The notes under the pieces were generated by a model, which did no database searches, was not told the DNA's origin, and was given only the letters and a program-made list of their open reading frames with translations. From an uncultured archaeon (GTDB taxonomy: Archaea; Aenigmatarchaeota; Aenigmatarchaeia; CG10238-14; SCSR01): 41,473 bases of DNA. The stretch is from NCBI GenBank assembly GCA_964570195.1, contig CAZMWU010000002.1, forward strand, positions 1-41,473. The letters run 5' to 3'. Both the position numbers and the translations under genes were made by a program. Each line of letters begins with the position of its first letter. Positions within the stretch are counted from its first letter, which is position 1. This document shows, in pieces, positions 3,691 through 35,911 of the stretch.

Positions 3691-4011
3691 TTATCCAAGT
3701 AGCTTGATTTCAATCCTGATATCTGTCGGGATGTTCACTCGCATTATTTGCCTAAGCGCCCTGTCGTCGGCTTGGACATCCAGTACCCTCTTATGGATAC
3801 GCATTTCCCATTTTTCCCAAGTCGCGTTTCCGTGACCAGTTCCGTCCCCAGAAGGTGTCTTCAAAGTTGTAATCTTCATTTTCTTTGTCGGCAATGGTAT
3901 GGGACCATGATAATCTATTCCAAATTTCTTGGCAATCTCTCTAATCTCATTTGATACGCCGTCCAATTCCTCCGGATTCTTCCCGCTCAGTTTTATTCTC
4001 GCTATTTGCAT
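3691..4011 (-). CDS. rps10: 30S ribosomal protein S10 (uS10)
   Basis: 106 aa. ARIKL.G....LD, GPIPLPTK and the HKR..D signature are typical of uS10. Confidence 0.95.
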   Translation of the reverse strand: MQIARIKLSGKNPEELDGVSNEIREIAKKFGIDYHGPIPLPTKKMKITTLKTPSGDGTGHGNATWEKWEMRIHKRVLDVQADDRALRQIMRVNIPTDIRIEIKLLG

Positions 4012-4154
4012 ACTCTCTTAATTAGATGATTACTTTAAAAAGGTTTACTGAGGAAAGAACTAGTTACTTAGCTTTGACCACATAGAGCAATTCAGATGTT
4101 TAAAAGTTGTCTAACCTTTTGACACTTAATATCAATCCAAAGGAGTTAGATAAC

Positions 4155-5420
4155 ATGGTTAGCGAGTATCAGATAAAGAAGTTAGAAACTGATTTGAGGA
4201 AGCTTCAAAACACTACCAAAATAAATCAGTTACAGAAGGATAAGATATTCAAATTCTTAGATTTGATTAATGCTCAAGGCAGGTCTCCAGCTACAAAAAG
4301 GAATATTATCTGGGCACTAATGACAACAGGAGAGATGTTAGGGAAGCCATTCGAGGAGGCTACATACGATGACATTGTTCGTATTGTTGGAGATGTAGAA
4401 AAGAGATATCAGAGTGGTAAAACTAAGAAAATGCTGAAAGCTGAAATAAGAAGATTTTACAAATGGCTGAGGCAGACATCTGATTTTCCACCAGAAGTAT
4501 CGTGGATAAAGTTGGATTACAAGGTTGACACAGAAAGTAAGATAGCCCCAGAGGATATGCTTGCAGACAGTGAGGTAGACGCTTTAGCGAATGTTACCCT
4601 GAACTCTAGAGACAGAGCTCTAGTTTATATGTTGGCTGAAAGCGGTTGCAGGATAGGAGAACTACTTGCTCTGAAAATCAAGAACATAAAATTCGATAAC
4701 AAAGGTGTTCTATTACATATTCCAGAAGGTAAGACAGGAAGACGTCAGGTAAGACTTGGAAACCACACTAAAGAACTTTTGAAGTGGTTAGATGAGCATC
4801 CCTCTAAAGAAGACCCAGAAGGACCAGTATGGGTTTCTTTGAGTAACAACTCGAAAAACAAGTGCTTGACTTATGTTGGTGTTGAAATTCTTTTGAAAAG
4901 ATTAGCTGTAAAATGCGGTTTAGGTAAGTGGATAGGTGGGAATGGTGGATTAGGTAGCAAACCACGTGGTCGATATGTAGGAAGACCAGTAAATCCTCAT
5001 AATTTTCGGCATAAAAAGGCGACAATGCTATTAATCCATAAAGGCATTCCAGAAGCTATAGTGAAAAGGTATATGGGATGGTCTAATCATTCAAGGATGG
5101 TAGAAATTTACACTCATTTTAATGACCAAGATGTAGACAATGCAATTCTCGAGTCCAATGAAATTGATGCAAAAAACGTAGAGAAAATGATTCCAGTAGA
5201 CTCTAGAATATGTGCCAACTGTGGGGAGGTCAACACAATACTCTCGCATTTCTGCAAAAAGTGTAATAACTTATTGGACTTGTCCGTAGCATGGAAAGAG
5301 AAGGATATAGCTGTAGCAAAAATTTTGGAAGAATTGAAGAATGATGAGTGGTTTAGAGAAAAGGTAAAGGAAATAATTAGCAAGTTGAATTTGGAAAAGG
5401 AATTTATTGAACTTGATTGA
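4155..5420 (+). CDS. Tyrosine recombinase / integrase with a C-terminal zinc-ribbon extension
   Basis: Catalytic-residue pattern R (ESGCRIGELLALK), HxxR (HNFRHKKAT) and Y (VEIYTHF). CxxC...CxxC (CANCG...CKKCN) follows the catalytic Tyr. ATG at 4155 is preceded by GGAG; the ORF track's TTG at 4107 is an alternative start. Confidence 0.85.
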   Translation: MVSEYQIKKLETDLRKLQNTTKINQLQKDKIFKFLDLINAQGRSPATKRNIIWALMTTGEMLGKPFEEATYDDIVRIVGDVEKRYQSGKTKKMLKAEIRRFYKWLRQTSDFPPEVSWIKLDYKVDTESKIAPEDMLADSEVDALANVTLNSRDRALVYMLAESGCRIGELLALKIKNIKFDNKGVLLHIPEGKTGRRQVRLGNHTKELLKWLDEHPSKEDPEGPVWVSLSNNSKNKCLTYVGVEILLKRLAVKCGLGKWIGGNGGLGSKPRGRYVGRPVNPHNFRHKKATMLLIHKGIPEAIVKRYMGWSNHSRMVEIYTHFNDQDVDNAILESNEIDAKNVEKMIPVDSRICANCGEVNTILSHFCKKCNNLLDLSVAWKEKDIAVAKILEELKNDEWFREKVKEIISKLNLEKEFIELD

Positions 5421-5589
5421 CAATAGTTATTATAGCTTTTTCTGGTATATCCCATCCTCTTTCAATTTCCAATCTTTCTAAGTGGTCCAACACAATTCGC
5501 TTTTCAAAGTTAGTAAAAATTCCAAGATGTTCCATAATAGTGAAATACTTGTTAGATATGGTTCTTATTCTCTCTATGTCAAATATCAT
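5404..5589 (-). CDS. Hypothetical small protein (61 aa), convergent with the integrase
   Basis: Open frame only, with no recognisable motif. Overlaps the integrase 3' end by 17 nt. Confidence 0.25.
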   Translation of the reverse strand: MIFDIERIRTISNKYFTIMEHLGIFTNFEKRIVLDHLERLEIERGWDIPEKAIITIVNQVQ

Positions 5590-5770
5590 ATTATATCCTT
5601 ATCTAATAACTGTTAGGGCACGGTTTAAAAGCTTTCGGTTTTCTTATTTCAAGAAAGCATTTAGACAATTTGTGAAGGAGAGAAATTACCAGACCTTATT
5701 CGTCACCGAAAGTTGAGAGAACTTGTGATTAAGCTTTTATATGAGGTAAATTTAGTCTTATTTAGATGAA

Positions 5771-8062
5771 ATGTTAAAAATCTTGGGTGTGCCTTCGATT
5801 GCAATTGTTTTATTCTTATTTTTATCCTCTTTAGCAATTGCACAAGGTCAGGGGTTTACAGTAACATCTGTTTCTACTTCATCAGTTGTAACAAAAAATA
5901 CCGACCCTATCCAAGTCTATTGGATAGTTAATACACAGTTGACTGGTGGCGGTCAAGCTATAACAGGAACTATTTCTCCAGAAACAGTCAAAAGTTTTAT
6001 GGGTAATAAATTATATACGAACAAATCTCTTCTCATCGAAGCCAGTACTGTAGACGAACAAATATTTTATGAAATTCAAAATGAAGGTATAGGAATTTAC
6101 AAATATAAGGGTCAAACATTCACAGACGCCCCTAACTTCTTAGGTGTTACAACAGGAAACCCTTCACCATGTCCTACTGGAGCTAATTGGGATATACTTT
6201 TAGGCAGAACCCTTTTCAGCTACGGGACAAAAAGGTACTGTATAACTAAAGAACAGGTTGGAATAAAAGGCGTTTACAATAATCCAACTATTGGTTTCAA
6301 TGCAAAAATTAAACTATCTGTTGGTACAGACACGAAAGAGAAAACTATCTGTTCTGGTTCAGTAAGCGGTTGTGACGGCAGTTCAGTTAGCTTTGATAGT
6401 GTCGCTGTAGCTACTTGGAGCGGTTCTTTAGTTACTGGGGACCCAGCACCAAACCAAGATAATTTCGTTGCTATAAAAAGAAACGATATTGGCAAATGGC
6501 AAATAGCAAGAAAATCAACTTATGAAGCTTACTTTCCAAAAGTAGACGTTACTGACCAGAAACTCAATACAGCCAAAACTACTTACGAGAGAAGTTCCGA
6601 TGTAACAAAAGCCGATAAAGAAATAATAGATGCAGTAACACCAGTTAATAATGCTACCGCTACACTCTTGGGTGAAGATACGTCATTTACGTCAACACCG
6701 TTTACAAAGGACGATAATACAGGAAAGGTTACTTTAACACTGAAAAGAAGTCTGACTTCACCTAATATTGTACTCAAAGTAAGAGCTGACTGGATAGGTC
6801 TTGTAATTCCTTCAGGTCAACCTAAGATACTTGGTGTGCAAGCTGAGAAATTTGCCAGCGGTGAGCCTGGAACCATCAGCATCCAAATAGAGAACGTGGG
6901 GGAGGTTGGTGGTACATTTTCTGCAATGTTAGTAAATTGCGACCCATTTGTACAAACAACAACTACTCAAAGTGCGAGAAAAACCTTACAAGCTGGAGAG
7001 GTTGATAGCATAACAATTTCTGTGAGTGGAGGGGATGAAGCACAAACTCTTACAAAATCATGTTCTGTAAAAGTTTATGATGTTAATGAGCCTTCTCAAG
7101 AAGATTTGTATCCACTAACTTTAGAATTGACAACTCCAAAGCTATGTGTTCCAAACAAAGTCATCGCCGATGGCAATATCATCAAAAAATGCAATCAGTT
7201 TGGAACAGGTATAGAAATTGTAAAGACATGCAAGAAAGGTGTAGTATCTGACGGTAAGGGTGGATATATATGCTCAGAAGAGACTTCTAAATACGAGTGT
7301 ATTTCAGATGCACAATGTGGAGAGTTTGCTTACTGTAATTTGGATATTCATGCATGCGTACAAAAGAGTTCTTGTTTGAAAATAATTGATAATGGAGATT
7401 CGAGTTCAAAAATAGATGTCTCGTTTGTTGGAGATGGTTATTCTGATAACCAAGTATTAAAGGACGATGTTGCTAAGCTTGTGGATTATGATGGGAATAA
7501 CGGTTATAATGGCATGATGTCTGTTGAACCATTCAAATCAAACAAAAACAAATTTAACGTTTGGATAATAAAAGGTGGGAATATACCAGCTGATAGTTCT
7601 AACACTGTACTTGGAAATATTCCAGATATTGAAAAGTCTTTAGAAATTTCAGCAGAATGTACATCGGCAGATTACCAAGTTATATTATCTAAGAAAGATT
7701 TCCGTTCTTTTGCATTCTTTTCAGGTGAGGCGTTTGTATCAGTTGAAAATAAAATTGATACTGACGAAGGCAGACTTTTATTACATGAATTTGGACACTC
7801 ATTTGGAAAGTTGGCCGACGAATATGTCGAACCGCAATTGGGCGATAGAGCAACATACCCTAATTGTGCTCCAGACACTTCTACTGCTCAAAAATGGTGG
7901 GGAAGCGTTTCGAATACAGGGATTTTTTCTGGTTGTAGTTATGTTGAAAATAATATAAGACCAACTTTCAACTCGATTATGAGAGATTATTGGATACTAA
8001 AAGATGATTATGGAGAGGTAAATAAATTGGCACTTTTACAAATATTAAATAAATACAGGTGA
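5771..8062 (+). CDS. Secreted multidomain protein with a C-terminal M64 (IgA-peptidase-like) zinc metallopeptidase domain
   Basis: N-terminal signal peptide (LFLFLSSLAIAQG). A CARDB-like beta-sandwich stretch and a Cys-rich linker follow. The C-terminal part has DVSFVGDGYS, PF.SN.NKFNVW and HEFGHSFGKLADEY (nt ~7784-7825), as in peptidase family M64. Confidence 0.7.
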   Translation: MLKILGVPSIAIVLFLFLSSLAIAQGQGFTVTSVSTSSVVTKNTDPIQVYWIVNTQLTGGGQAITGTISPETVKSFMGNKLYTNKSLLIEASTVDEQIFYEIQNEGIGIYKYKGQTFTDAPNFLGVTTGNPSPCPTGANWDILLGRTLFSYGTKRYCITKEQVGIKGVYNNPTIGFNAKIKLSVGTDTKEKTICSGSVSGCDGSSVSFDSVAVATWSGSLVTGDPAPNQDNFVAIKRNDIGKWQIARKSTYEAYFPKVDVTDQKLNTAKTTYERSSDVTKADKEIIDAVTPVNNATATLLGEDTSFTSTPFTKDDNTGKVTLTLKRSLTSPNIVLKVRADWIGLVIPSGQPKILGVQAEKFASGEPGTISIQIENVGEVGGTFSAMLVNCDPFVQTTTTQSARKTLQAGEVDSITISVSGGDEAQTLTKSCSVKVYDVNEPSQEDLYPLTLELTTPKLCVPNKVIADGNIIKKCNQFGTGIEIVKTCKKGVVSDGKGGYICSEETSKYECISDAQCGEFAYCNLDIHACVQKSSCLKIIDNGDSSSKIDVSFVGDGYSDNQVLKDDVAKLVDYDGNNGYNGMMSVEPFKSNKNKFNVWIIKGGNIPADSSNTVLGNIPDIEKSLEISAECTSADYQVILSKKDFRSFAFFSGEAFVSVENKIDTDEGRLLLHEFGHSFGKLADEYVEPQLGDRATYPNCAPDTSTAQKWWGSVSNTGIFSGCSYVENNIRPTFNSIMRDYWILKDDYGEVNKLALLQILNKYR

Positions 8063-8066
8063 ACTA

Positions 8067-8648
8067 ATGAAAAAATCGCTAGCCACAATCATTTTAATAA
8101 TTCTAATGCTTTCATTAACAACTTTTGCTCAAAGTAATTTAGTTTACTCTTTAACTTTAAAATACGACGGTACTACTTTAACTAACGAGGGTCTAAGATT
8201 AATAGAAGGTACTGCTCCAGATAGAATAAATCAACCCGAAAACGGATTCACTTTGAAAGTCACTTCTTTCGATAACGAAGTCCTTCATTCATTCAAATTT
8301 TTGATAGAAACAACACCTATTAGAGCCCCACCAAAGGATATTTTTAGTGAAAATGGTACTCAAATAAAAATTCCTACAGGAGAATCAACTCAAATTACTA
8401 AATCTGTAGTTTTAGTAGTTCCGTATTTCTCAAATGCAATATCTGTTGATATATTGGATTCAAATGACAAACTGATATTATCAGTTGACGTTTCAAAATA
8501 TTCGAAAGTACCAGCTGGATTATCTAGTCTGACAATCTTCATAATACTAGGTATTGGTATAGTAGCGTTCATCGTAGTTTCATTCTTTTATGTTAAGAAA
8601 CGAGAACATAAAGTGAGTATAACTAAACACCATAAGAGAAGTAAGTGA
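8067..8648 (+). CDS. Secreted protein with a C-terminal transmembrane anchor and basic tail
   Basis: Signal peptide (ILIILMLSLTTFAQS). C-terminal hydrophobic helix followed by KKREHK...HHKRSK. Starts 4 nt after the upstream stop. Confidence 0.55.
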   Translation: MKKSLATIILIILMLSLTTFAQSNLVYSLTLKYDGTTLTNEGLRLIEGTAPDRINQPENGFTLKVTSFDNEVLHSFKFLIETTPIRAPPKDIFSENGTQIKIPTGESTQITKSVVLVVPYFSNAISVDILDSNDKLILSVDVSKYSKVPAGLSSLTIFIILGIGIVAFIVVSFFYVKKREHKVSITKHHKRSK

Positions 8649-8652
8649 GTAT

Positions 8653-8913
8653 ATGAAAAATGATATTAGAGATATAACTATTTTAATTATCACACTACTT
8701 TTTATTGCTCCGAATATTTTTGCACAATCTCAAGCAGATGTTGAGGTAACAGCATTGCCTTTAGAAGTTACATCACCTATTGAAACAAGTCAGTCATCTG
8801 ATACATCATCGCTTATAGCATATGTAGTTGTTATTGGCGTTCCTATTTTAGGAATAGGTTTACTTTATTTTGGTATAAAAGGTTTATTAAAAAGCCGTAA
8901 TAAAAAAAGATGA
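8653..8913 (+). CDS. Small secreted protein with a C-terminal transmembrane anchor
   Basis: 86 aa. Signal peptide (LLFIAPNIFAQS), a Ser/Thr-rich middle, a C-terminal TM helix and a KSRNKKR tail. 4-nt gap from the upstream gene. Confidence 0.5.
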   Translation: MKNDIRDITILIITLLFIAPNIFAQSQADVEVTALPLEVTSPIETSQSSDTSSLIAYVVVIGVPILGIGLLYFGIKGLLKSRNKKR

Positions 8914-8917
8914 AAGT

Positions 8918-9457
8918 ATGAGGATTTATCTAATCTTAAGCTTGATTGGACTTGTTTTTCTTGCGGGATGTACGCAATTAAATATCTCAAGTATGAGTTC
9001 TGGTAGATGTCATGAACTTGCTGAAGAGATGATACCCGATAAAATTAACTTACTAATAGGTACACAACAGAACGTTCCAGGAGATTGGAGTCTCCCAACA
9101 GGGGCATTTGGAAGCTACGAAAGTTTTTGGAACGATGGGTCAGAAATTACTGCACCGTATATGATGTCTATCTATTTTAGGCCAGGAAATCAAGAAGGTG
9201 AGAATGTTAACTACTACTATTTTGAAAAAGGAAAGTTCATCTATGAAGACAATTCTCTCAAGTATTCAAAGCAAATAATCAATGATGATGGCGTGATATT
9301 AGGAATCCGTGAGTTTGGAATTGCACCTACATTGAAAGAGATTCCAGGTAGTGAGAACCATATTTCAGACATCCACAAGATTAAAAGTTTTGAAATTATT
9401 AAACCTAATTTTATTTTTTGCTATTGGGTTACAGACGAGGGAGAAAGTATTAAATGA
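8918..9457 (+). CDS. Putative lipoprotein
   Basis: Lipobox-like VFLAGC after a hydrophobic N-terminus. 4-nt gap from the upstream gene. Confidence 0.55.
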   Translation: MRIYLILSLIGLVFLAGCTQLNISSMSSGRCHELAEEMIPDKINLLIGTQQNVPGDWSLPTGAFGSYESFWNDGSEITAPYMMSIYFRPGNQEGENVNYYYFEKGKFIYEDNSLKYSKQIINDDGVILGIREFGIAPTLKEIPGSENHISDIHKIKSFEIIKPNFIFCYWVTDEGESIK

Positions 9458-9621
9458 AACTGTCCAAGCAAAAAATAAGCTTCGTTCTGAAAAATTTTGG
9501 CATCGGTCTTGGCACAGCATCGCTTATTTACGGAGTCACAAATAGTTTTGACATCCGTGTATACAGTTTGTTATTTCTTGCACTTAGCTTTATTGTAAGC
9601 AATTGGTTGTGGAAGAAATAA
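9454..9621 (+). CDS. Small (55-aa) two-helix membrane protein, below the ORF-track cutoff
   Basis: Hand-translated as MKLSKQKISFVLKNFGIGLGTASLIYGVTNSFDIRVYSLLFLALSFIVSNWLWKK. Its ATG overlaps the upstream TGA (ATGA), suggesting translational coupling. Two hydrophobic segments. Confidence 0.4.
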   Translation: MKLSKQKISFVLKNFGIGLGTASLIYGVTNSFDIRVYSLLFLALSFIVSNWLWKK

Positions 9622-9631
9622 AAAATTAGAT

Positions 9632-10906
9632 TTATTGTATGAGAGGTTCAAAAACTAAATAGCTATTATCTCTTGTGCTGTTGGCATCCACACATTCTGA
9701 ATTAGTTTTTAATGCTATTTGAGGCGAATTTAGAAACTCATAATTCAAAACATTAGAAAAGTTTAAACTATTGGTTGAGGAATGTATCCAAGGGCCACAT
9801 CTCTGCCATACTATTTGCGTTGCATTAAGAGTTTGGTCACAGATAAAGACACTGTAATTTGTTACCCGTTCCTTTATCAAATCTGAGTATTGACTTCTAT
9901 AAATATCATCGGGAATTGTAAAAACATAATCTTGAAAACAAACTTGAAAATTTTCTAAATTATTCAAATATATGGGGACAATGTATTGTACACGTCCAGT
10001 ATTAGTAACATATTTCCAAAAGGGGCTTTGTATATCTGATATCCATGCATTATGAAGAGGAAATGTATCGCCACGATATCCGAGTTTTACATTGATTTTT
10101 TCATATGTCCATCCATCACCGAAACCATAAAGCTTTGCAGAATTTTTATCCTTGTTAACGTGAGATACTAAGAAGGGTTGTATGTTCTCATACCAAACAT
10201 CGGTTAAATTGGAAGGTGATAAAGGTATTGTCACATCTCTATCAATTGGTATAAGTGGTGGTTTTATTTCTAATTCAACCCTACTAGATACAAAATCTCT
10301 TCGAGTATTATTAATAGTACGTATTGACCCAAACCTGATTTCGTTATCTAAAACAGAAACTTTTGGCAAAAATATAGGCCACACCACTTGAATTGTTAAC
10401 ATAAAACTCAAAAATATTGCAGCATATTTCCACCAATGCTTACGAAATTCCTCATTCTTAAACGCCGATATTGCGATAATTGTAAAGAAAAATAAAACTA
10501 GAATTGGATAAAGTGAAATAAGTGATTTTTGATACAGAATCAGAAATATGTATATATACAGCAATAGAGTACCTATGACTACTCCCATTACAATTGATAA
10601 CGCCATGTTTTTTATAAGCTGTCTCGAAAGCTTATTTCGACTGTCGGTTTGTAAGATTTTTTGACTGGGTTTATACCCCTTTTTATTTTTAATAACCAAG
10701 TTTCTGTTCTTCCAAAAGTGGGTGACTATCGTCACAATCCAAATAAGTGCAACTCCTTCAAGAAAAACTCCTATGATAAAATAAATCATTGCAACAGGAG
10801 TGACTATACCTAGCTTATCCAATCCGAATAAAGAAATTGCAAGACCAGTTCCTAACATTGTCAATGGAATACCAAAAAGATTACTCAAACGCTCTATTAT
10901 AGACAT
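9632..10906 (-). CDS. Polytopic membrane protein with a large C-terminal non-membrane domain (unknown function)
   Basis: About 5-6 hydrophobic helices in the first ~180 aa, then ~240 aa that are Asn/Tyr/Trp-rich and soluble. No recognisable motif. Confidence 0.55.
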   Translation of the reverse strand: MSIIERLSNLFGIPLTMLGTGLAISLFGLDKLGIVTPVAMIYFIIGVFLEGVALIWIVTIVTHFWKNRNLVIKNKKGYKPSQKILQTDSRNKLSRQLIKNMALSIVMGVVIGTLLLYIYIFLILYQKSLISLYPILVLFFFTIIAISAFKNEEFRKHWWKYAAIFLSFMLTIQVVWPIFLPKVSVLDNEIRFGSIRTINNTRRDFVSSRVELEIKPPLIPIDRDVTIPLSPSNLTDVWYENIQPFLVSHVNKDKNSAKLYGFGDGWTYEKINVKLGYRGDTFPLHNAWISDIQSPFWKYVTNTGRVQYIVPIYLNNLENFQVCFQDYVFTIPDDIYRSQYSDLIKERVTNYSVFICDQTLNATQIVWQRCGPWIHSSTNSLNFSNVLNYEFLNSPQIALKTNSECVDANSTRDNSYLVFEPLIQ

Positions 10907-10964
10907 AGTTTTTAATTGAGAATAAAGCTATTTAACCCATTCCCTTCTTGTAACTTCTGTTAAG

Positions 10965-11510
10965 TTATGCACCATCATAATTTTTTTTGAATAAAGCTTT
11001 TTCAACAACCCTCAGATTGAGATTATGTTTGTTTGCTATTTTTCTTAGTTTCTCCAGAAGTTTTATGTAGTGGTTAGGATTAGTAATGTCTTTCGGTCTT
11101 GTTTTAGGGTTGGTAGCAAACACCTCATCGTATATGTGTATATCAAACACACCGTAGTTTTTTGGGTCATAAAATGTTAAGATAGCACTTGCTACAGCTA
11201 GCCCGACGCTTTTAATTTCCATAAGATACTTCAATCTTAGGAGTTCATCATCGGTAGTAAAAGCTAGGTTAGACAGTCTTTTTATTTCATTATCATCAAC
11301 TTTTTCAACCAAGTTTAATTCTCTTTTCAATCGGTGTTTGTTTGTTGCAAATTTCCATTTGATAACTTGAATCAAATCTTCTTTAGCCATTTTTTTATTT
11401 GTTCTGAATCTATTTCCCAATTCAGCTTCTAGTTTTGGAGACCATTGGTCTTCTTCAGCATCGTATTTCTTACATAAATCTAGAATTTGTTCTTTCGTTA
11501 TGTCAATCAT
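10965..11510 (-). CDS. Hypothetical protein with a helix-hairpin-helix / OGG-fold-like C-terminal motif
   Basis: IKSVGLAVASAILTFYDPKNYGVFDIHIYDEVF resembles the HhH plus Asp segment of HhH-GPD glycosylases (compare AILDVHIL in the Ogg at 1953-2600). No clear catalytic Lys. Motif-level call only. Confidence 0.35.
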   Translation of the reverse strand: MIDITKEQILDLCKKYDAEEDQWSPKLEAELGNRFRTNKKMAKEDLIQVIKWKFATNKHRLKRELNLVEKVDDNEIKRLSNLAFTTDDELLRLKYLMEIKSVGLAVASAILTFYDPKNYGVFDIHIYDEVFATNPKTRPKDITNPNHYIKLLEKLRKIANKHNLNLRVVEKALFKKNYDGA

Positions 11511-11544
11511 ATATCTAGATTAGTTCTTCATCCAATAAAAAGCT

Positions 11545-11808
11545 CTAACCCTTTAACTTCTGAAGCTCTTTCAGAACTTCCAAACCAAGCTTAGTTATCT
11601 TATACAATTTACCTACTCTTTCATGTGGTGTCAGACATTCTATGAGTTTCTTCTTTTTAAATTCCTTCAAAGCTCTTGATACATGTGTAGAATAAAGTCC
11701 GCTCTTCTTTGCTACAACACTGGGAGTAATGGGTTCCCTAAGTAACGGTAATATCTGCTTTCTCTGTTTGCTTCGAGACACGAATGATACCAAATCCCAC
11801 TTGACCAT
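11545..11808 (-). CDS. Small winged-helix (ArsR/MarR-like) transcriptional regulator
   Basis: 87 aa. The pattern ...ILPLL.EPITPSVVAKKSGLYSTHVSRALKEFKKKKLIE...GKLYKITKLG is a classic HTH plus wing. Confidence 0.65.
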   Translation of the reverse strand: MVKWDLVSFVSRSKQRKQILPLLREPITPSVVAKKSGLYSTHVSRALKEFKKKKLIECLTPHERVGKLYKITKLGLEVLKELQKLKG

Positions 11809-11902
11809 AAATTAGTCTTCTAAGACCTAATTCTAAACAGAATATGACCAAAGTATTACCAACTAACAACAAACTTAAATATCTGAATTTTTAGTTAAAA
11901 TT

Positions 11903-12499
11903 ATGGGTTGGAAAAAGAAGCTCCTAATAGGTTCTGTTTCAATAGTTTTCGTTCTGGTAGCTTTGGGTGTTTTATTTGGGGGCAGTGAAACCGAAAGTTC
12001 TAAAACAACTGGACAGGTAACTGGGGTATCAGAACAGCAATCTTTAACCATGAAATCTGCAAGTGAAATGTTACCAACGAGAGAAGAGATTCCGACGGAA
12101 TTTGTAATGAGCACTGTAAATGATATTAGCACCTCCGTTTCCGTGTCTGGTTTGGAAGAGGCTAAAAGTATTTCTACAGATAAGATAGAAGGGAGTTTCG
12201 GGGTAATTTCAGTTGGTTATTCAGTTTACAAGTTTTCGACAGTTGAAGATGCGATAGTATATCATAATGGTTTAGTTGATAACGTAGTTCAGGTTGGTGG
12301 ATACGAAGAGATTAAATTATCTAGTGACAACTGCTTTAGTTATAAGGAGGATTACGGATTTGAAGCTAAGATGGGTCAAGGTATTTGTGTTGAGAAAAAT
12401 GTTGTTTTTACAGTAGGTTTTGCTTCATCGAACTCTTTCAAAAGTCCCGACGGCTTTATCAAAGATGGTATAAAATTACTTGATAAAAAGGTGAGTTAA
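11903..12499 (+). CDS. N-terminally anchored extracytoplasmic protein (unknown function)
   Basis: A single N-terminal TM/signal-anchor (LLIGSVSIVFVLVALGVLFGG) followed by a soluble domain. Confidence 0.5.
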   Translation: MGWKKKLLIGSVSIVFVLVALGVLFGGSETESSKTTGQVTGVSEQQSLTMKSASEMLPTREEIPTEFVMSTVNDISTSVSVSGLEEAKSISTDKIEGSFGVISVGYSVYKFSTVEDAIVYHNGLVDNVVQVGGYEEIKLSSDNCFSYKEDYGFEAKMGQGICVEKNVVFTVGFASSNSFKSPDGFIKDGIKLLDKKVS

Positions 12500-12519
12500 T
12501 TAACTCTATTTTAATATTT

Positions 12520-13353
12520 TTGTTGTTGAGTGTTGTTTTTCTAGTTGGATGCACGACACAACCTTCTACAACAGGACAAATTGTAGAATCCACACCATTA
12601 GAAGAATCTGAAGTACCAGAACAAAAAATAATTCAGAATGAATCTGAAATCATTTCTCAGGGAAAAGTAACAAAAAACGTCTCTCCTATTGATTTTTGTT
12701 CCTCGTTGCAATTTGATGCCGTTACAGGAAGATGGTCGCCATACAAATATGAAATTTCCATAACTAACTTAGGCTTGGACATTGATGAAGATGTCGAAAT
12801 TTCCACAATAGACAACAGTATTGTCATTGATGAAATCAGATTCATAGATTGGTTGAGTCAAAATGTTAAGACTATCTATATGGATGCAGGTATTAGAACA
12901 TTAAGAATCAAGCCTGCAAGTTGTGCGAAAGGATTTATTATTGATTTGAACATGCCTGTGCCCAAACAGTGTTCCGTGACGATTTCTGATTTAAGATGGT
13001 CGGGAAATTATGATGATAAGGTATTTCTCACTTTCAATGTGGAAGGATATGATACTTTTGAACAAAATGTAACTACAACAGTCAGTACGGGAAATCATCA
13101 ACGTTGTGTATACCCTGAAAGTGAGGGAGGGTTGCGAATATTTATGTCTGATTCGTATGTTGTCTATAATGACCGCACAGCAATAGTCGGCTCCTCTCAA
13201 GTATCAAAGGAGATGGTGATGAATATAGACAAAGAGCATTGTGAATATACTAATCAAATTAAAGTAAATGTCTCTTCATCGCAGTGCGAACTATTCCTAA
13301 AACACTATAATTTATCTACAGATGATTCGATAGACGGAAGAGTTGCTGGTTAA
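12520..13353 (+). CDS. Putative lipoprotein / secreted protein (unknown function)
   Basis: Short hydrophobic N-terminus ending in LVGC (lipobox-like). TTG start with no in-frame ATG nearby, so the start is uncertain. Confidence 0.45.
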   Translation: MLLSVVFLVGCTTQPSTTGQIVESTPLEESEVPEQKIIQNESEIISQGKVTKNVSPIDFCSSLQFDAVTGRWSPYKYEISITNLGLDIDEDVEISTIDNSIVIDEIRFIDWLSQNVKTIYMDAGIRTLRIKPASCAKGFIIDLNMPVPKQCSVTISDLRWSGNYDDKVFLTFNVEGYDTFEQNVTTTVSTGNHQRCVYPESEGGLRIFMSDSYVVYNDRTAIVGSSQVSKEMVMNIDKEHCEYTNQIKVNVSSSQCELFLKHYNLSTDDSIDGRVAG

Positions 13354-13518
13354 AGTGATATTGGACGTGAATGATTTAGAGAGCGAAAGATAAACTCGTA
13401 CTAAGCATTAAATTCATTTTATGAAATGATAAGATATGTTAAGCAAAACGGCAAAAAGTAAACCATAAAGTATTATCCGACCAGAAAATTTTGTGCGTAC
13501 ACTAGAAACGGACTTGTT

Positions 13519-13543
13519 GAACCTTTCACTTCGTGAAAGGTTC
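13519..13543. repeat. Perfect 11-bp inverted repeat (hairpin) between convergent genes
   Basis: gaacctttcac-ttc-gtgaaaggttc, read directly from the sequence. Confidence 0.85.
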
Positions 13544-13630
13544 ACATCCCCTCCGTCCCCAATCAAATCTATATGAAATTTTCGATGAAAGCATAAAGTG
13601 TAAAGGATTTGTAAAAGAAATAAGCATAAA

Positions 13631-14104
13631 TCATTTAGATAGCTCTAGGTCCTTTTTCCAAGTTAGCTTTCCCTTCTTCTTGAGATACTCTTTATGTCCT
13701 TCTTTGAGCAATTGTTCTACTTTTCTACCATGTTCACTGTTCTTTTCATCCTCTCGAACTTCATCCCAATCAGTTGTATCTAACACATGTCTCGATTCGG
13801 GACTCATGGATTCTCTCAGTCTTTTGTTGCGTTCCTTGTAGTATTTGCCAACATTCTTTTTATTTTTACGTTGGGTATTCCTCAAGTCTTGTTCGTGATT
13901 ATACGTAGCTATGTACAGCGACATCCCAATCGGAGGGACTTGCGGATTTGAAATTTTCAATATCCCGTTGTCTGGGTCGGCTTGTATTCCGACTGGTATC
14001 TTACCTTTGTCCTGAGGTATATCCCACCCCATTGAAATAATCATGTCGCTTGGTAAACCTTCAATGGTGAAGTTTCTCTTGGTTTTTCTGATATAACTTC
14101 CCAT
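13631..14104 (-). CDS. Hypothetical protein with a highly charged Lys/Glu/Arg-rich C-terminal half
   Basis: 157-aa ORF with no recognisable motif. Confidence 0.4.
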   Translation of the reverse strand: MGSYIRKTKRNFTIEGLPSDMIISMGWDIPQDKGKIPVGIQADPDNGILKISNPQVPPIGMSLYIATYNHEQDLRNTQRKNKKNVGKYYKERNKRLRESMSPESRHVLDTTDWDEVREDEKNSEHGRKVEQLLKEGHKEYLKKKGKLTWKKDLELSK

Positions 14105-14160
14105 ACATGATATTGCCTAGGGCAAAGTTTTATAGATGAAATTTTCCACATTCTTACTCA

Positions 14161-14295
14161 ATGTTAAGAAAACAGGTTTTGTTAGCTGAAAAGGAAGTAG
14201 AAAGGGTTAATCAACTGCGAGAGAATGAAACAAGAAGTTTCAGTTCCATGTTGCGAGTACTTCTACAGAAAGCTTTGAAAAATGAGGTTGTCTGA
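14161..14295 (+). CDS. Ribbon-helix-helix (CopG-like) small DNA-binding protein, below the ORF-track cutoff
   Basis: Hand-translated as MLRKQVLLAEKEVERVNQLRENETRSFSSMLRVLLQKALKNEVV. It has an N-terminal beta-strand-like segment and the RS.S..LR.LL..AL helix pattern of RHH proteins. Its stop overlaps the next ATG. Confidence 0.45.
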   Translation: MLRKQVLLAEKEVERVNQLRENETRSFSSMLRVLLQKALKNEVV

Positions 14296-14399
14296 TGACT
14301 AAGCTGTATCCAAAATCCTGGCAAGTCATTTTAGAAATCCTGAAAGAAAAGAAAATGCCCGTTCCTGAAGCGGGCAAAGGAATTGATACCAATGAATAG
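14295..14399 (+). CDS. Very small hypothetical ORF (34 aa)
   Basis: Hand-translated as MTKLYPKSWQVILEILKEKKMPVPEAGKGIDTNE. Its ATG overlaps the upstream TGA and its end overlaps the next ATG. Only the overlapping-gene context supports it. Confidence 0.25.
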   Translation: MTKLYPKSWQVILEILKEKKMPVPEAGKGIDTNE

Positions 14400-14634
14400 A
14401 TTAAACAAGGCTGATTATAAATCTCAGATGCAACAAGATGGAATCGATGCAGTATTCTTACGGGTTAAGAACGAGTTGGACGATTTCACACCTTTCATAA
14501 CTTATCCAGTCTTTTTCACATGGGCTAAATTTTTGAAATATCACAAGCCTGAACTATGGAAAATAATTTTCGAATTGAAACGCAGGAAGTATATTCGATT
14601 AGTTCGCGGGCATGGATTTGAAATTCTCAAGTGA
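14392..14634 (+). CDS. Small hypothetical protein, possible winged-helix
   Basis: 80 aa from the ATG at 14392 (the ORF track uses TTG at 14383). The C-terminal ELKRRKYIRLVRGHGFEIL resembles a recognition helix plus wing. Weak. Confidence 0.4.
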   Translation: MNRLNKADYKSQMQQDGIDAVFLRVKNELDDFTPFITYPVFFTWAKFLKYHKPELWKIIFELKRRKYIRLVRGHGFEILK

Positions 14635-15346
14635 TTTTATGAGGAGCAAACACGGTTTCAAGTTTATATCAAAGATACCCAGCGACAATTTGCCCATCCT
14701 TCACGAGAGCTGGCAAGAATATGCTGATAAAGTCGACCCGAATGAAAACGACAGGGCAAAGAATATCACATATGACTTACCCCAAATCGGCAAGGTAACA
14801 GTCTCACATACAACAGGAACAATCACGATAGACACAAATAAAAGTCAGAAAGAGCTCCTAAAAACAATAAGAAAATATGTTGGTGGTAGACAGTACGAAT
14901 CCTTCGAGAGTAATCTAGTATGCAAAGAAGCTGGTGCACACTTCAGGAAGTTCCATGGAACGGTAGGGTATATTCTCAATGTCAAACAACCAGGTAAGAT
15001 ACCTATTTTCCTAAGTGCAAGAGGGTGCAACAGTTATGCAGACATACATATCAAAATTCCATGGAAGATGGCAGACATAGAGGACTTTTCAAAAAAGGAC
15101 TATACCCCTACCAGTACCCCTATACGGAAATACACCTTAGACACGGATATTTTAGACTTGGTAAAAAAACGAGATGTAGTTAGAACAAAAGACTGTTCTG
15201 CGGTAAACCTATCTGAATCCGCATTTTATCGCAGACTAGAGAAATTACGTATCCAGGGCAAGCTCACTAGAACAAACAGATACCCAGCCCTGTATATGTC
15301 TAATCCATTGATTTTGCAAAAAGCGAAACAAGATTTATATTCTTAA
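14612..15346 (+). CDS. Hypothetical protein with a C-terminal HTH-like segment; candidate element replication or regulation protein
   Basis: 244 aa, overlapping the upstream ORF by 23 nt. The C-terminal LSESAFYRRLEKLRIQGKLTR resembles an HTH. The function is inference from context only. Confidence 0.45.
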   Translation: MDLKFSSDFMRSKHGFKFISKIPSDNLPILHESWQEYADKVDPNENDRAKNITYDLPQIGKVTVSHTTGTITIDTNKSQKELLKTIRKYVGGRQYESFESNLVCKEAGAHFRKFHGTVGYILNVKQPGKIPIFLSARGCNSYADIHIKIPWKMADIEDFSKKDYTPTSTPIRKYTLDTDILDLVKKRDVVRTKDCSAVNLSESAFYRRLEKLRIQGKLTRTNRYPALYMSNPLILQKAKQDLYS

Positions 15347-15383
15347 GAAACTAACTAAGAAATGGGTTAGACAAAGTTCAACA

Positions 15384-16661
15384 TCATTTGGCTTTAACCA
15401 CATCAAGAACTACGCCGGCAGCCACAGTCATTCCCATATCTCTGATAGCAAACCTAGCCAATTGTGGAAATTCCGATTGCTTTTCAATGACCATAGGCTT
15501 CAAGGGCTTCACTTTAATCCTTGCGGCATCCCCTGTCTTGATGAAGTCTGGTTTTTCCTGGACGACCTGCCCCGTCTTCGGATCTATCTTTGCTATTATT
15601 TCTTCAATCGTGCATGCTACCGCTGCCGTGTGTGCATGGAATACAGGCGTATATCCGGCAGTCACCACAGTAGGATGGTTCAAAACAATAATCTGCGCTG
15701 TAAACTCAGAAACAACTGTTGGCGGGTTGTTTGGATGTCCGATAACATCACCTTTCTTTATCTGCGACTTGTCTACACCTCTTACATTAAATCCTACATT
15801 ATCACCTGGCACGGCTTGTGGCAGTTGCTGGTGATGGATTTCTATCGATTTGACTTCGCCAGTCACACCTGCAGGCTGGAAAACAATAGTATCATTAATT
15901 TTCATCACGCCTGTCTCCACTCTTCCAACAGGAACGGTACCGACGCCAGTGATAGAATAAACATCTTGTACAGGAAGTCTCAATGGCTTGTCAGTTGGCT
16001 TATCGGGCTCTTTTATAAATTGATCCAAAGCTTCAATCAAAGTAGGGCCATTATACCAAGGCATCTTGTCCGATTTCTTCGCTACGTTATCACCAACATA
16101 TGCCGATGCCGGAATGAATGGTATTTCCGCGACCTTGTAGCCAATCCCTTGCAGAAGTTTCGTAACTTCGACTTTCAATTCCTCGAATCTCTTCTGGTCA
16201 TAACTTGCCGCATCCATCTTGTTCAACACAACCAACATCTGGCCTATTCCGAGGACTTTCATCAACCAAGCATGTTCTTTTGTCTGTTCCTGTATTCCTT
16301 CACCCGGCTTTGCAGATACAACAAAAATCGCAGCATCGGCCTGTGAAGCGCCTGTAATCATGTTCTTGACAAAATCCCTGTGGCCTGGAGCATCAATAAG
16401 AGTGAAATACCATTTTTGTGTTTCAAATGGTCTGTGCATAATGTCAATCGTAACCCCTCTTTCACGCTCTTCCTTGACCTTGTCCATCACGAACGCGAAT
16501 TCAAATGTCTCCTTCTTCAGTTCAGTGGCAACCTCTCTCAGTTTTCTCATTTCTTCTTCCCTGATTGATCCTGTGTCATATAGAAGTCTTCCGACTAGAG
16601 TAGACTTCCCTGCGTCTACATGTCCTGATGTCATTATGTTAATGTGCGGTTTTGTTGGCAT
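15384..16661 (-). CDS. tuf: Translation elongation factor aEF-1 alpha
   Basis: [17 protein letters not shown] and NKMD GTPase motifs. Full-length, 425 aa. Confidence 0.97.
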
Positions 16662-35838: not shown

Positions 35839-35911
35839 AGCCCTGTTGTGTAGTGGTCAAGCATGCGACCCTCTGGAGGTCGAGACAGCGGTTCGAATCC
35901 GCTCGGGGCTA
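35839..35911 (+). tRNA. tRNA-Gln(CUG), no intron
   Basis: The acceptor is AGCCCTG/CGGGGCT (A1-U72). The D-arm is GTGT-AGTGGTCAA-GCAT. The anticodon arm is CGACC-CTCTGGA-GGTCG and the T-arm is AGCGG-TTCGAAT-CCGCT, with discriminator A. No CCA is encoded. Confidence 0.9.

What the first reader, a model, noticed from the sequence alone, without database searches (positions are those of the whole stretch)
4012..15383. About 11.4 kb integrase-bearing insertion splits the conserved tuf-rps10 junction
All genes from rpoH to aEF-1alpha lie on the minus strand in the canonical archaeal order. The gene that normally follows tuf directly is rps10. Here tuf ends at 15384 and rps10 starts at 4011.

The roughly 20 ORFs between them lie on both strands, and none is translation-related. 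The rps10-proximal end carries a complete tyrosine integrase. The tuf-proximal end carries a compact block of overlapping small regulator-like genes (RHH, wHTH), as in small archaeal plasmids and proviruses.

Insertion into this operon-like junction, rather than at a tRNA, would be an unusual target. The cargo consists almost entirely of secreted or membrane proteins of unknown function.
Basis: partly seen in the sequence, partly recalled or inferred. Interest (0 to 1): 0.7.

Follow-up and report, generated by a model that had tools for sequence, protein, structure and literature searches.

The report
Integrase element inserted in tuf's end
An 11.3 kb mobile element in a DPANN (Aenigmatarchaeota) archaeon has inserted into the last codons of the essential elongation-factor gene tuf using its own tyrosine integrase, and it carries a spare copy of the gene's end so that tuf stays intact; relatives of this integrase sit at the same site in other genomes.

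Summary

- **Insertion site.** The crossover is not in the tuf-rps10 spacer. It lies inside tuf, 14-20 nt before its stop codon.
- **Repeats.** A 7-bp repeat, ACCACAT, sits at 4077-4083 and 15397-15403 and bounds an 11,320-bp element. The original tuf end (…VVKAK*) is stranded at 4064-4083 beside rps10. The element supplies a synonymous new end.
- **Empty sites.** Close relatives have uninterrupted tuf-rps10 sites. Joining the window's two flanks gives a sequence collinear with them.
- **attP.** The reconstructed attP has 21-22-nt inverted arms placed 11 nt either side of the core. Two other complete elements (11,308 and 11,028 bp) have the same layout.
- **Integrase clade.** In every case where flanking DNA was available, integrases at least 44% identical sit at a tuf 3' end with a tuf remnant. 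This holds for about ten independent contigs. Those at 42% identity or less do not. One sub-lineage inserts in the opposite orientation.
- **Cargo.** It is almost unique to each element; here it is mostly secreted or membrane proteins. No virus, conjugation or clear replication genes were found.
- **Mobility.** No circular form was found, so current mobility is inferred.

This is a new member of a known kind of element.

The parts
3691..4011 (-). rps10 (host gene), the normal downstream neighbour of tuf
   Evidence: Pfam Ribosomal_S10, 3.4e-26
4034..4041 (-). TATA-like box (TTTTTAAA on the minus strand) 23-30 nt upstream of the rps10 ATG. It lies inside a spacer conserved with the empty sites L001 and L023, so rps10 appears to keep its own promoter
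   Evidence: Alignments. The promoter function is inferred.
4064..4083 (-). Displaced original 3' end of tuf. It reads …YVVKAK* and is followed by the native tuf-rps10 spacer
   Evidence: It continues collinearly into the same spacer as in empty-site relative L001. It is one of only two [VILA][VILA]K[ASG][KR]* matches in all six frames of the window.
4077..4083 (.). attL core ACCACAT (ATGTGGT in tuf orientation), the putative 7-bp overlap or crossover region
   Evidence: The same position is used in L081, L085, L086 and L094 (ATGTRGT).
4084..4116 (.). Integrase-proximal attP arm: an 11-nt inner segment (4084-4094) plus a 22-nt outer inverted-repeat arm (4095-4116, GATGTTTAAAAGTTGTCTAACC)
   Evidence: Inverted repeat I19, laid out. 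The arm is conserved in L081, L082 and L085.
4155..5420 (+). Tyrosine integrase (421 aa from the ATG at 4155; the ORF opens at TTG 4107). It has a C-terminal CxxC…CxxC zinc ribbon
   Evidence: PF00589, 8.2e-19. R166/K193/H282/R285/W309/Y319 and four Cys are invariant in 15 homologues. The closest solved structure is XerA 4a8e, 8.6e-21.
5648..5701 (+). Possible relic of the 3' end of a different integrase allele (FKKAFRQFVKERNYQTLF)
   Evidence: 72% identical to residues 371-388 of the 393-aa integrase P0016, E 2e-6 in a 400-nt search space. This is weak evidence.
5771..8062 (+). Cargo: a 763-aa secreted protein with a C-terminal M64-like metalloprotease domain (HEFGH)
   Evidence: Peptidase_M64, 2.1e-11. 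N-terminal hydrophobic segment.
8067..9457 (+). Cargo: three small secreted or membrane proteins of 193, 86 and 179 aa
   Evidence: There are no family matches apart from a sub-threshold TrbC hit for the 86-aa ORF.
9632..10906 (-). Cargo: a 424-aa protein with five predicted transmembrane segments
   Evidence: No Pfam or PHROG match.
10965..11510 (-). Cargo: a 181-aa protein of unknown function
   Evidence: Weak Ogg-HhH match (0.002) and phrog_24538 at 1.8e-8.
11545..11808 (-). Small winged-helix regulator, one of the few genes shared between elements
   Evidence: HVO_A0261_N, 6e-8. Homologues in L171 (55%) and L083 (34%).
11903..13353 (+). Cargo: two secreted or lipoprotein-like proteins of 198 and 277 aa
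   Evidence: and for the 198-aa ORF only. That ORF has a 54% homologue in element L081. The lipoprotein-like call for the 277-aa ORF rests on reading its N-terminus (VVFLVGC), not on a tool result.
13631..14104 (-). 157-aa basic protein, transcribed divergently from the regulatory block
   Evidence: No family match.
14161..14634 (+). Compact block of three ORFs: a 44-aa RHH, a 34-aa ORF and an 83-aa ORF
   Evidence: RHH_5, 5.2e-5. The 83-aa ORF has a 52% homologue in L083.
14612..15346 (+). Conserved last gene beside the attP arm: an N-terminal beta-rich domain absent from Pfam, plus a C-terminal winged helix
   Evidence: Homologues are the last gene before tuf in L176 (60%) and L094 (hhalign 96%, 3.9e-9). 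AF2 pLDDT is 85.7. There is a weak fold match to RepDE 4cwe (E 4.9e-4, TM 0.31).
15365..15396 (.). Integrase-distal attP arm: a 21-nt outer inverted-repeat arm (15365-15385, GGTTAGACAAAGTTCAACATC) plus an 11-nt inner segment (15386-15396). It also encodes the replacement tuf end …(V)KAK*
   Evidence: The arm is conserved in L083 and L176.
15397..15403 (.). attR core ACCACAT
15384..16661 (-). tuf / aEF-1alpha. Its last 13 nt, up to the core, are supplied by the element, and the protein sequence is unchanged

Best explanation
Window 4084-15403 is an 11,320-bp integrative mobile element of an Aenigmatarchaeota (DPANN) host.

**Proposed mechanism.**
- Its XerA-like tyrosine integrase (4155-5420) recombined a site on the circular element (attP) with a site in the chromosome (attB). 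attB lies in the last codons of tuf, at the D-V-V codons GATGTGGT. This step is inferred.
- Strand exchange took place in a 7-bp overlap, ATGTGGT.
- The original end of tuf, its stop codon and the rps10 promoter were pushed 11.3 kb away.
- The element's integrase-distal arm carries a synonymous copy of the last codons (GTT AAA GCC AAA TGA), so tuf still encodes …VVKAK*.
- In attP the core sits midway between two 21-22-nt inverted repeats, each 11 nt from it. I infer that these repeats, and perhaps the inner 11-nt segments, are integrase-binding sites.

**What is shown.** The insertion, its exact borders, the restored tuf end, the intact integrase, and a clade of related integrases that always sit at tuf.

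**What is inferred.** The position of strand exchange, the protein-binding roles of the repeats, and that the element can still excise.

**Classification.** The cargo encodes mostly secreted and membrane proteins of unknown role. No replication, capsid or transfer machinery was recognised. It is therefore best called a cryptic integrated element.
For: 1. **Empty sites.** The closest relatives have tuf, then 50-85 nt, then rps10. Joining window …15404 to 4083… gives a sequence collinear with L001 across the tuf end, the spacer and the rps10 start.
2. **Remnant.** A tuf-end remnant, …YVVKAK*, lies at 4064-4083. It is one of only two such matches in six frames of 41 kb. The same pattern gave only 3 unrelated hits on the searched strand across the 80 non-tuf integrase loci.
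3. **Repeats.** The 7-bp core is identical at both ends, with inverted repeats just inside each.
4. **Symmetry in three elements.**
   - window: 22 - 11 - [7] - 11 - 21 nt;
   - L083: the same layout;
   - L094: 17 - 12 - [7] - 12 - 17 nt, with different arm sequence.

   In shuffle tests, 322 of 20,000, 0 of 20,000 and 0 of 20,000 shuffles reached the observed symmetry, in that order.
5. **Integrase clade.** Where flanking DNA was available, integrases of 44-84% identity lie next to a tuf remnant or the tuf end:
   - L081, L082/83/84, L085/L091, L086/87, L094, L174, L093, L171/L092;
   - L173 ends exactly at the core.

   The next clade, at 42% identity or less, does not.
6. **Variable cargo.** Cargo differs almost completely between elements, while the integrase, the arms and the terminal gene are kept.
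7. **Intact integrase.** All catalytic residues are present.
8. **Independent assembly.** A second assembly spans the right-hand junction.
9. **Composition.** The element is more AT-rich, and the tetranucleotide distance peaks at 6-12 kb.
Against: - No attP (circular) junction was found. A degenerate attP pattern gave nothing in JGI metagenome contigs. Arm patterns gave nothing in IMG/VR. No fetched locus has both arms joined. Excision is therefore unproven.
- The perfect repeat is only 7 bp. It would be unconvincing without the comparative evidence.
- The window's own arm symmetry is only modestly significant, because of a 1-nt indel (322 of 20,000 shuffles).
- No excisionase or replication gene was identified.
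- The composition difference is modest, and the flanks are highly expressed genes that are GC-richer anyway.
- No relative of any element gene was seen downstream of tuf in the 80 species-level genomes fetched.
Confidence: 0.88

Rival explanations
1. It is a virus satellite or other packaged element. On this reading the family consists of elements of about 11 kb that excise and are packaged by a helper virus, with size limited by a capsid.
For: - Three complete elements with nearly unrelated cargo are 11,320, 11,308 and 11,028 bp long.
- The L094 element encodes a clear large terminase right after its integrase (phrog_2, 1.3e-42; Terminase_6N and 6C above their cut-offs).
- The layout of integrase, RHH and wHTH regulators plus a small module next to attP resembles that of bacterial satellites (my own knowledge).
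- The nearest viral integrases belong to archaeal pleolipoviruses, at 28% identity.
Against: - The window's element has no terminase, capsid, portal or other virion gene by Pfam or PHROGs.
- Only the integrase matches pleolipovirus GacPV1.
- IMG/VR holds no relative of the integrase or of the terminal gene, and no arm sequences.
- Three lengths are too few to show a size constraint, and the L086 element is longer than 11.28 kb.
Confidence: 0.12
2. It is an integrated plasmid that replicates autonomously after excision. The conserved last gene (14612-15346) would be its replication initiator.
For: - That gene keeps its position beside attP in three elements.
- It combines a conserved His/Asp/Tyr-bearing N-terminal domain with a wHTH.
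- Its only fold match below 1e-3 is the rolling-circle initiator RepDE, 4cwe.
- In pleolipovirus GacPV1 the Rep gene is also the last gene before the integrase.
- A related element, L083, has an AAA-lid protein after the homologue of the 83-aa ORF.
Against: - The fold match is weak: TM 0.31 and rmsd 19.7 Å.
- There is no sequence match to any Rep family.
- No helicase, primase or Orc1/Cdc6 gene is present.
- The PLSDB hits to the integrase are only distant, at 28% identity or less.
Confidence: 0.2
3. It is a fixed, no longer mobile genomic island: an old insertion kept for its cargo.
For: - No circular form was found.
- Other lineages show decayed remains at the same place. L082 has a second, older tuf remnant 1 kb further on, and L005 has one 412 nt after tuf.
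- There is a possible relic of another integrase allele at 5648-5701.
Against: - The integrase is full-length with all catalytic residues.
- Both 7-bp cores are identical, and the arms match those of other elements.
- The closest relatives, at 86-89% tuf identity, lack the insertion.
- The two assemblies of this population are 99.98% identical, so they say nothing about the age of the insertion.
Confidence: 0.25
4. It is an assembly artefact that joins a mobile-element contig to the ribosomal-protein cluster.
For: Metagenome contigs often break or mis-join at repeats. Contig L173 ends exactly at the core.
Against: - An independent assembly spans the right-hand junction.
- The left-hand junction has the same architecture in at least six other contigs from different samples.
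- Both junctions show exactly the hybrid sequences expected from site-specific recombination.
Confidence: 0.02

Closest known systems
Cryptic integrated elements and other tyrosine-integrase iMGEs of Thaumarchaeota that insert in the 3'-distal part of protein-coding genes (Krupovic et al. 2019, PMC6563490)
   Same: - Archaeal host, tyrosine recombinase and very short att sites (down to 8 bp).
- Insertion in the last codons of a protein gene.
- The element supplies a replacement end and stop codon, as NitEve-E2 does.
- Boundaries can be proven only by comparison with empty sites.
- Cargo is of unknown function.
   Different: - The host phylum is Aenigmatarchaeota (DPANN).
- The target gene is tuf/aEF-1alpha, which is not in that paper's list.
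- The integrase clade carries a C-terminal zinc ribbon.
- attP is strongly symmetric.
- A whole clade is specific for this one site.
Family 1 casposons of Nitrosopumilus, which insert in the 3' end of aEF-2
   Same: They use the 3' end of an essential, conserved translation-elongation GTPase gene in the same gene cluster. Tandem re-use of the site is seen (PMC6563490).
   Different: Casposons use a Cas1 integrase, carry terminal inverted repeats, create target-site duplications and encode PolB. None of these is present here.
pNOB8-type (type II) archaeal integrases, as opposed to SSV-type (type I)
   Same: The integrase gene stays intact on integration, because attP lies outside the gene. The classification itself is from my own knowledge.
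   Different: Phylogenetic membership in the pNOB8 family was not tested. By sequence the nearest solved structures are the XerA proteins.
XerA/XerC/D-type tyrosine recombinases acting on dif-like sites
   Same: This is the best sequence match among solved structures (4a8e at 8.6e-21; 5hxy). The site has a short central region flanked by inverted binding arms.
   Different: This enzyme is element-encoded, has an extra zinc ribbon and C-terminal helix, acts on two unlike partners (attP and attB), and has additional outer 21-22-nt arms.
Integrated pleolipoviruses such as Geoglobus acetivorans pleomorphic virus 1 (BK065156)
   Same: This is the nearest viral integrase (28% identity over 88% of the length). 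The genome size is similar at 13.4 kb, and the integrase is the first gene.
   Different: No VP3-like, VP4-like, ATPase or Rep homologue was found.

Membership tests
Tyrosine recombinase / phage integrase family (PF00589) | Catalytic domain scoring above the curated threshold | tested here: met
   68.5 bits against a cut-off of 27.1. phrog_1 integrase at 3e-29.
Tyrosine recombinase / phage integrase family (PF00589) | Catalytic R-K-H-x-x-R-H/W-Y residues | tested here: met
   R166, K193, H282, R285, W309 and Y319 are invariant in 15 homologues.
Tyrosine recombinase / phage integrase family (PF00589) | N-terminal SAM-like core-binding domain | tested here: inconclusive
   Phage_int_SAM_1 scores 20.1 bits, below its 22.3 cut-off. 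The profile aligns to XerA from residue 10.
Site-specifically integrated mobile element (attL/attR-bounded) | Direct repeat at both ends | tested here: met
   ACCACAT at 4077 and 15397, within GCTTTrACCACAT.
Site-specifically integrated mobile element (attL/attR-bounded) | Uninterrupted target site in related genomes | tested here: met
   L001, L003, L004, L006 and L023. The reconstructed site is collinear with L001.
Site-specifically integrated mobile element (attL/attR-bounded) | Same integrase clade at the same target, with different cargo, in other genomes | tested here: met
Site-specifically integrated mobile element (attL/attR-bounded) | Excised circular form (attP) or restored attB in the same population | tested here: not met
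   No attP junction in JGI contigs, IMG/VR or the fetched loci. Raw reads cannot be searched with these tools, so this is absence of evidence only.
SSV-type (type I) archaeal integrase elements | attP lies inside the integrase gene, so the gene is split on integration | tested here: not met
   The integrase ORF is intact. The core lies 72 nt upstream of its ATG.
Casposon | Cas1-family integrase, PolB, and terminal inverted repeats with a target-site duplication | tested here: not met
   No Cas1 or PolB among the Pfam and PHROG results for the ORFs of 80 aa or more and the small ORFs that were scanned.
Pleolipovirus provirus | VP3-like and VP4-like membrane proteins plus a conserved NTPase | tested here: not met
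   No PHROG match. Only the integrase matches GacPV1. Very divergent homologues cannot be excluded.
Tailed-virus provirus or terminase-bearing satellite | Large terminase, portal and major capsid protein (any one of them) | tested here: not met
   None in the window's element. A large terminase is present only in the related element L094.
Integrative conjugative element | VirB4/TraC-type ATPase and coupling protein | tested here: not met
   No ATPase gene is present. The only hint is a sub-threshold TrbC/VirB2 hit for the 86-aa ORF (19.6 bits against a 27.9 cut-off).
Rolling-circle plasmid or virus (Rep_trans or HUH Rep) | A recognisable Rep with a catalytic Tyr and a metal site | tested here: inconclusive
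   The model of 14612-15346 matches RepDE 4cwe at E 4.9e-4 but with TM 0.31. Y142, D144 and H146 are invariant. There is no sequence-level match.

The most novel reading that the evidence does not exclude
The tuf-targeting elements could be a family of archaeal (DPANN) virus satellites or otherwise packaged elements. Their size would be held near 11 kb by a helper capsid. Their attP core, lying between inverted repeats, could be flipped to reverse the direction of insertion. Three observations fit this reading: three elements of 11.0-11.3 kb with unrelated cargo, a large terminase in one of them, and a sub-lineage inserted in the opposite orientation.
Probability: 0.12. Interest if true: 0.75.

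Novelty: new member of a known kind. Interest (0 to 1): 0.45.

Why it matters
Mobile elements of DPANN archaea are poorly charted, and these organisms have no genetic tools. This work defines three things:
- an integrase clade with a precisely mapped target that is conserved at the protein level, namely the last codons of an essential gene;
- a reconstructed attP;
- several natural cargo variants.

Together they give a testable integration system for Aenigmatarchaeota.

The finding also adds tuf/aEF-1alpha to the short list of protein genes used as integration sites in Archaea. The casposon target aEF-2 lies next door in the same gene cluster.

The tuf-rps10 interval in these small genomes is a place where foreign genes arrive, and in some lineages it holds decayed remnants. 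Many of the genes arriving here encode secreted or surface proteins. Such proteins could matter for an episymbiont's contact with its host, but that link is speculative.

Tried and rejected
- **Direct repeats.** The generic repeat finder did not report the att repeat, because 7 bp is below its limits. It did report the inverted arms as I19. The repeat came from reading the two ends side by side.
The stretch 13350-13650 holds no att-like repeat.
- **Exact-protein look-up of tuf.** Not on record.
- **Same element elsewhere.** I asked whether the same element sits after tuf in other species-level genomes. tblastn and phmmer of all element proteins against 80 tuf loci found nothing. Larger tuf-rps10 gaps in those genomes hold unrelated genes. 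Only L005 shows a stray tuf remnant.
- **Circular form.** The attP pattern gave zero hits in JGI metagenome contigs. Arm patterns gave zero hits in IMG/VR. No fetched locus has the arms joined.
- **IMG/VR relatives.** None for the integrase or the terminal gene.
- **Pleolipovirus provirus.** Rejected because only the integrase matches.
- **HUH motif.** An apparent HIH in the consensus of the 244-aa family is not conserved. The invariant motif is YxDxH.
- **Structure prediction.** The first AF2 run, with 4 sequences, was unusable (pLDDT 48). A 17-sequence alignment gave pLDDT 85.7. Fold searches then returned mostly winged-helix hits.
- **Literature.** A search for integration into tuf found nothing relevant.

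Full report
**1. The observation.**

- On the minus strand lie rpoB2, rpoB1, rpoA1, rpoA2, nusA, rps12, rps7, aEF-2 (16714-18906) and tuf/aEF-1alpha (15384-16661).
- rps10 follows only at 3691-4011, and after it come cmk, a YdjM-like gene and ogg.
- Between tuf and rps10 are about 16 plausible genes on both strands. None is translation-related.

The genes in that interval are:
- a tyrosine integrase next to rps10 (ORF 4107-5420; PF00589, 68.5 bits);
- a 763-aa secreted protein with an M64-like metalloprotease domain;
- several small secreted or membrane proteins, and a protein with five transmembrane segments;
- a small wHTH protein;
- next to tuf, a compact + strand block made of a 44-aa RHH (RHH_5, 5e-5), two small ORFs and a 244-aa protein ending in a winged helix.

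The host is an Aenigmatarchaeota (DPANN) archaeon. The best tuf matches are Aenigmatarchaeota MAGs at 86-89% identity. A 5.9-kb contig of GCA_016176655.1 is 99.98% identical to window 10355-16249 and crosses the element-tuf junction. That junction is therefore seen in an independent assembly.

**2. Is it an insertion?**

In the closest relatives (L001, L003, L004, L006, L023) the tuf stop codon is followed by about 50-85 nt and then rps10.

Reading the two ends of the window's interval side by side shows a second copy of the tuf end. Positions 4064-4083 on the minus strand read …YVVKAK*. The native spacer and the rps10 start follow directly, almost base for base as in L001. Joining window …15404 to 4083… gives a sequence collinear with L001 from inside tuf to inside rps10.

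So 4064-4083 is the original tuf end, and the end now attached to tuf (15384-15396) came with the insertion. The pattern [VILA][VILA]K[ASG][KR]* occurs only twice in six frames of the window: at the tuf end and at this remnant.

**3. Exact borders and site architecture.**

The two ends share GCTTTrACCACAT. The exact repeat is ACCACAT, at 4077-4083 and 15397-15403, which gives an element of 11,320 bp. In tuf orientation the core ATGTGGT covers the D-V-V codons, 14-20 nt before the stop.

Immediately inside each core lie an 11-nt segment and then a 21-22-nt arm, and the two arms are inverted repeats of each other (I19). The reconstructed attP is:

GGTTAGACAACTTTTAAACATC - TGAATTGCTCT - [ATGTGGT] - TAAAGCCAAAT - GATGTTGAACTTTGTCTAACC

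The core sits exactly at the centre of the dyad. Two other complete elements have the same design:
- L083 has the 22-11-7-11-22 layout with arms 18/22 identical.
- L094 has a 17-12-7-12-17 layout with a different arm sequence, 15/17 identical.

Shuffling tests of arm symmetry gave 322 of 20,000 shuffles reaching the observed value for the window (reduced by a 1-nt indel), 0 of 20,000 for L083 and 0 of 20,000 for L094.

This is the layout expected for a tyrosine recombinase: a 6-8-bp overlap flanked by inverted binding sites. The binding roles are inferred, not shown.

**4. The integrase and its clade.**

- The likely start is the ATG at 4155, preceded by AAGGAG. Homologues begin there.
- R166, K193, H282, R285, W309 and Y319 are invariant across 15 homologues.
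- A C-terminal CxxC…CxxC zinc ribbon is also invariant.
- The closest solved structures by sequence are the archaeal XerA proteins (4a8e at 8.6e-21; 5hxy).
- The gene is intact and attP lies outside it. It therefore behaves like the pNOB8 type and not like the SSV type, which is split on integration.

A database search found 203 homologues. I fetched the surroundings of the closest ones. Where flanking DNA was available, each homologue with 44-84% identity lies at a tuf 3' end:
- L081 (80%);
- L082/83/84 (80%);
- L085 and L091 (69%);
- L086/87 (44%);
- L094 (45%);
- L174 (71%);
- L093 (53%; remnant …DVVKLR*).

Each has a tuf remnant 70-90 nt upstream of the integrase gene on the opposite strand. 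L173 (74%) is a contig that ends exactly at the core.

Homologues of 42% identity or less (L088-L090, L095-L170) have no tuf remnant beside the integrase and no tuf nearby. Those examined (L088-L090) lie next to Orc1/Cdc6-like genes.

In L174 the gene after the remnant is a purB-like gene and not rps10. The target is therefore the tuf end itself and not the tuf-rps10 junction.

The core ATGTRGT is present in the tuf tail of 15 of the 80 related species-level genomes, mostly those with the closest tuf sequences.

**5. What the element does to tuf and rps10.**

- In the window the replacement end is synonymous (…VKAK*).
- In other elements it changes the tail slightly: VVKLS* in L094 and VKAKG* in L171/L092. 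L018's tuf ends VVKLR*, which suggests an element there too.
- The conserved spacer kept in front of rps10 contains a TATA-like box at 4034-4041, 23-30 nt before the ATG. It is shared with L001 and L023. rps10 probably keeps its own promoter, but this is inferred.

**6. Two orientations.**

In L171 (Logan) and L092 (JGI), integrases 67-69% identical lie immediately downstream of tuf and point the same way as tuf. This is the reverse of the window's arrangement.

The outer arm next to the integrase is homologous to that of the other elements. The inner segment, however, is the tuf-mimicking one that is normally found on the far arm. The simplest description is that the central 29 bp (11 + 7 + 11) is inverted relative to the arms and the integrase gene. 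Because this segment lies between inverted repeats, inversion is mechanistically easy. That explanation is my inference, and the far end of these elements was not recovered.

**7. Cargo and type of element.**

Between complete or partial elements only a few genes are shared:
- the integrase;
- the small wHTH (34-55% identity);
- the 83-aa ORF (52% in L083);
- the 198-aa ORF (54% in L081).

The last gene before tuf (14612-15346) is a second conserved feature.
- Homologues occupy the same position in L176 (60%) and L094 (hhalign 96%, E 3.9e-9).
- The family is small: 31 representatives among 1.84 billion proteins.
- A 17-sequence alignment gave a confident model (pLDDT 85.7), with a beta-rich N-terminal domain and a C-terminal winged helix.
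- H14, G69, G108, Y142 and D144 are invariant. D47 and H110 are nearly so, and Y-x-D-x-H is conserved after realignment.
- The only PDB fold match below 1e-3 is the rolling-circle initiator RepDE (4cwe), but at TM 0.31. No sequence-level match exists.

That gene could encode a replication initiator or an arm-binding directionality factor. Neither role is shown.

The window's element has no capsid, terminase, portal, pleolipovirus, conjugation, Cas1, PolB, helicase or Orc1 gene. It therefore fits the category of cryptic integrated element used for Thaumarchaeota (PMC6563490).

**8. Composition.**

The element has 35.3% GC against 39.0% in the flanks. The strongest tetranucleotide departure is at 6-12 kb. 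This agrees with foreign origin but is weak on its own, because the flanks are highly expressed, GC-richer genes.

**9. Mobility now.**

I found no circular junction. A degenerate attP pattern gave nothing in JGI metagenome contigs. Arm patterns gave nothing in IMG/VR. No fetched locus has the arms joined.

For current mobility:
- the integrase is intact;
- the two cores are identical;
- the arms are conserved.

For decay at this site over time:
- L082 carries a second, older tuf remnant about 1 kb beyond the first;
- L005 has a stray remnant 412 nt after tuf;
- the window has an 18-aa stretch at 5648-5701 resembling the C-terminus of a different integrase allele.

**10. Comparison with what is known.**

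Integration of archaeal elements into the 3' ends of protein genes is documented for Thaumarchaeota, with short att sites and stop codons supplied by the element. aEF-2, the gene next to tuf, is the favourite target of Nitrosopumilus casposons (PMC6563490).

I found no paper describing tuf as an integration target, or this integrase clade in Aenigmatarchaeota. The library is incomplete, so this is not proof of novelty.

I rate the finding as a new member of a known kind. The mechanism and strategy are familiar. The target, the host phylum, the integrase sub-clade, the symmetric attP and the orientation flip are new details.

**11. Less ordinary readings.**

Three complete elements with nearly unrelated cargo measure 11,320, 11,308 and 11,028 bp. 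One of them, L094, encodes a clear large terminase. That would fit elements packaged by a helper virus. Few virus satellites are known in Archaea (bioRxiv 10.1101/2025.02.15.638363).

Against this reading, the window's element has no virion-related gene, nothing related is in IMG/VR, and three lengths are too few. I give it about 12%.

Noticed in passing
L171:1-2013 and L092:1-1092: Integrases 67-69% identical to the window's lie directly downstream of tuf on the same strand, which is the opposite insertion orientation. There tuf ends …VKAKG*. The central part of attP appears inverted relative to the arms and the integrase gene.
   Followed up: partly
window 4077-15403; L083:886-12200; L094:114-11148: Three complete elements of this family measure 11,320, 11,308 and 11,028 bp although their cargo is almost entirely different. 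This may be a size constraint or a coincidence.
   Followed up: partly
L094:1975-3573: A related 11-kb tuf-inserted element (integrase 45% identical) encodes a clear large terminase subunit (phrog_2, 1.3e-42) directly after its integrase. No other recognised virion genes are present.
   Followed up: partly
window 5648-5701 (+): Just downstream of the integrase gene, an 18-aa stretch (FKKAFRQFVKERNYQTLF) resembles the C-terminus of a different integrase allele of the same clade (P0016, 72% identity). It may be a relic of an integrase-module swap.
   Followed up: partly
L082:8914-8931 and 9911-9928; L005:7690-7707: Extra stranded tuf-end remnants (…EVVKAK*, …VVKAK*) lie beyond the current insertion or after tuf. 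This suggests repeated insertions and decay at this site in other lineages.
   Followed up: partly
window 14612-15346 (+); also L176:4293-4979 and L094:10387-11127: This is a small protein family (31 representatives in 1.84 billion proteins) that is always the last gene before the tuf-side att arm. It has an N-terminal domain absent from Pfam, with an invariant Y-x-D-x-H, and a C-terminal winged helix. It shows a weak fold resemblance to the rolling-circle initiator RepDE.
   Followed up: yes
L173:1-10: A 2.8-kb contig carrying a 74%-identical integrase ends exactly at the att core (AACCACAT…). An assembly graph would branch there if occupied and empty or circular forms coexist.
   Followed up: no
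window 3241-3276: A perfect 18-nt tandem duplication (TTCACGTCTTTCAATTTC x2) lies inside the cytidylate-kinase-like gene. It encodes a repeated EIERRE in the protein.
   Followed up: no
window 10965-11510 (-) and 1953-2600 (-): The element's 181-aa ORF has a weak Ogg-HhH match (E 0.002) and a phrog_24538 match. A bona fide Ogg-HhH glycosylase gene lies in the host flank. The relationship between the two was not examined.
   Followed up: no
window 8653-8913 (+): An 86-aa ORF with two hydrophobic segments gives a sub-threshold TrbC/VirB2 pilin match (E 0.001; 19.6 bits against a cut-off of 27.9). No other conjugation gene is present.
   Followed up: no
window 35839-35911 (+): tRNA-Gln(CTG) is the only tRNA gene in the window. 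Nothing is inserted next to it.
   Followed up: no
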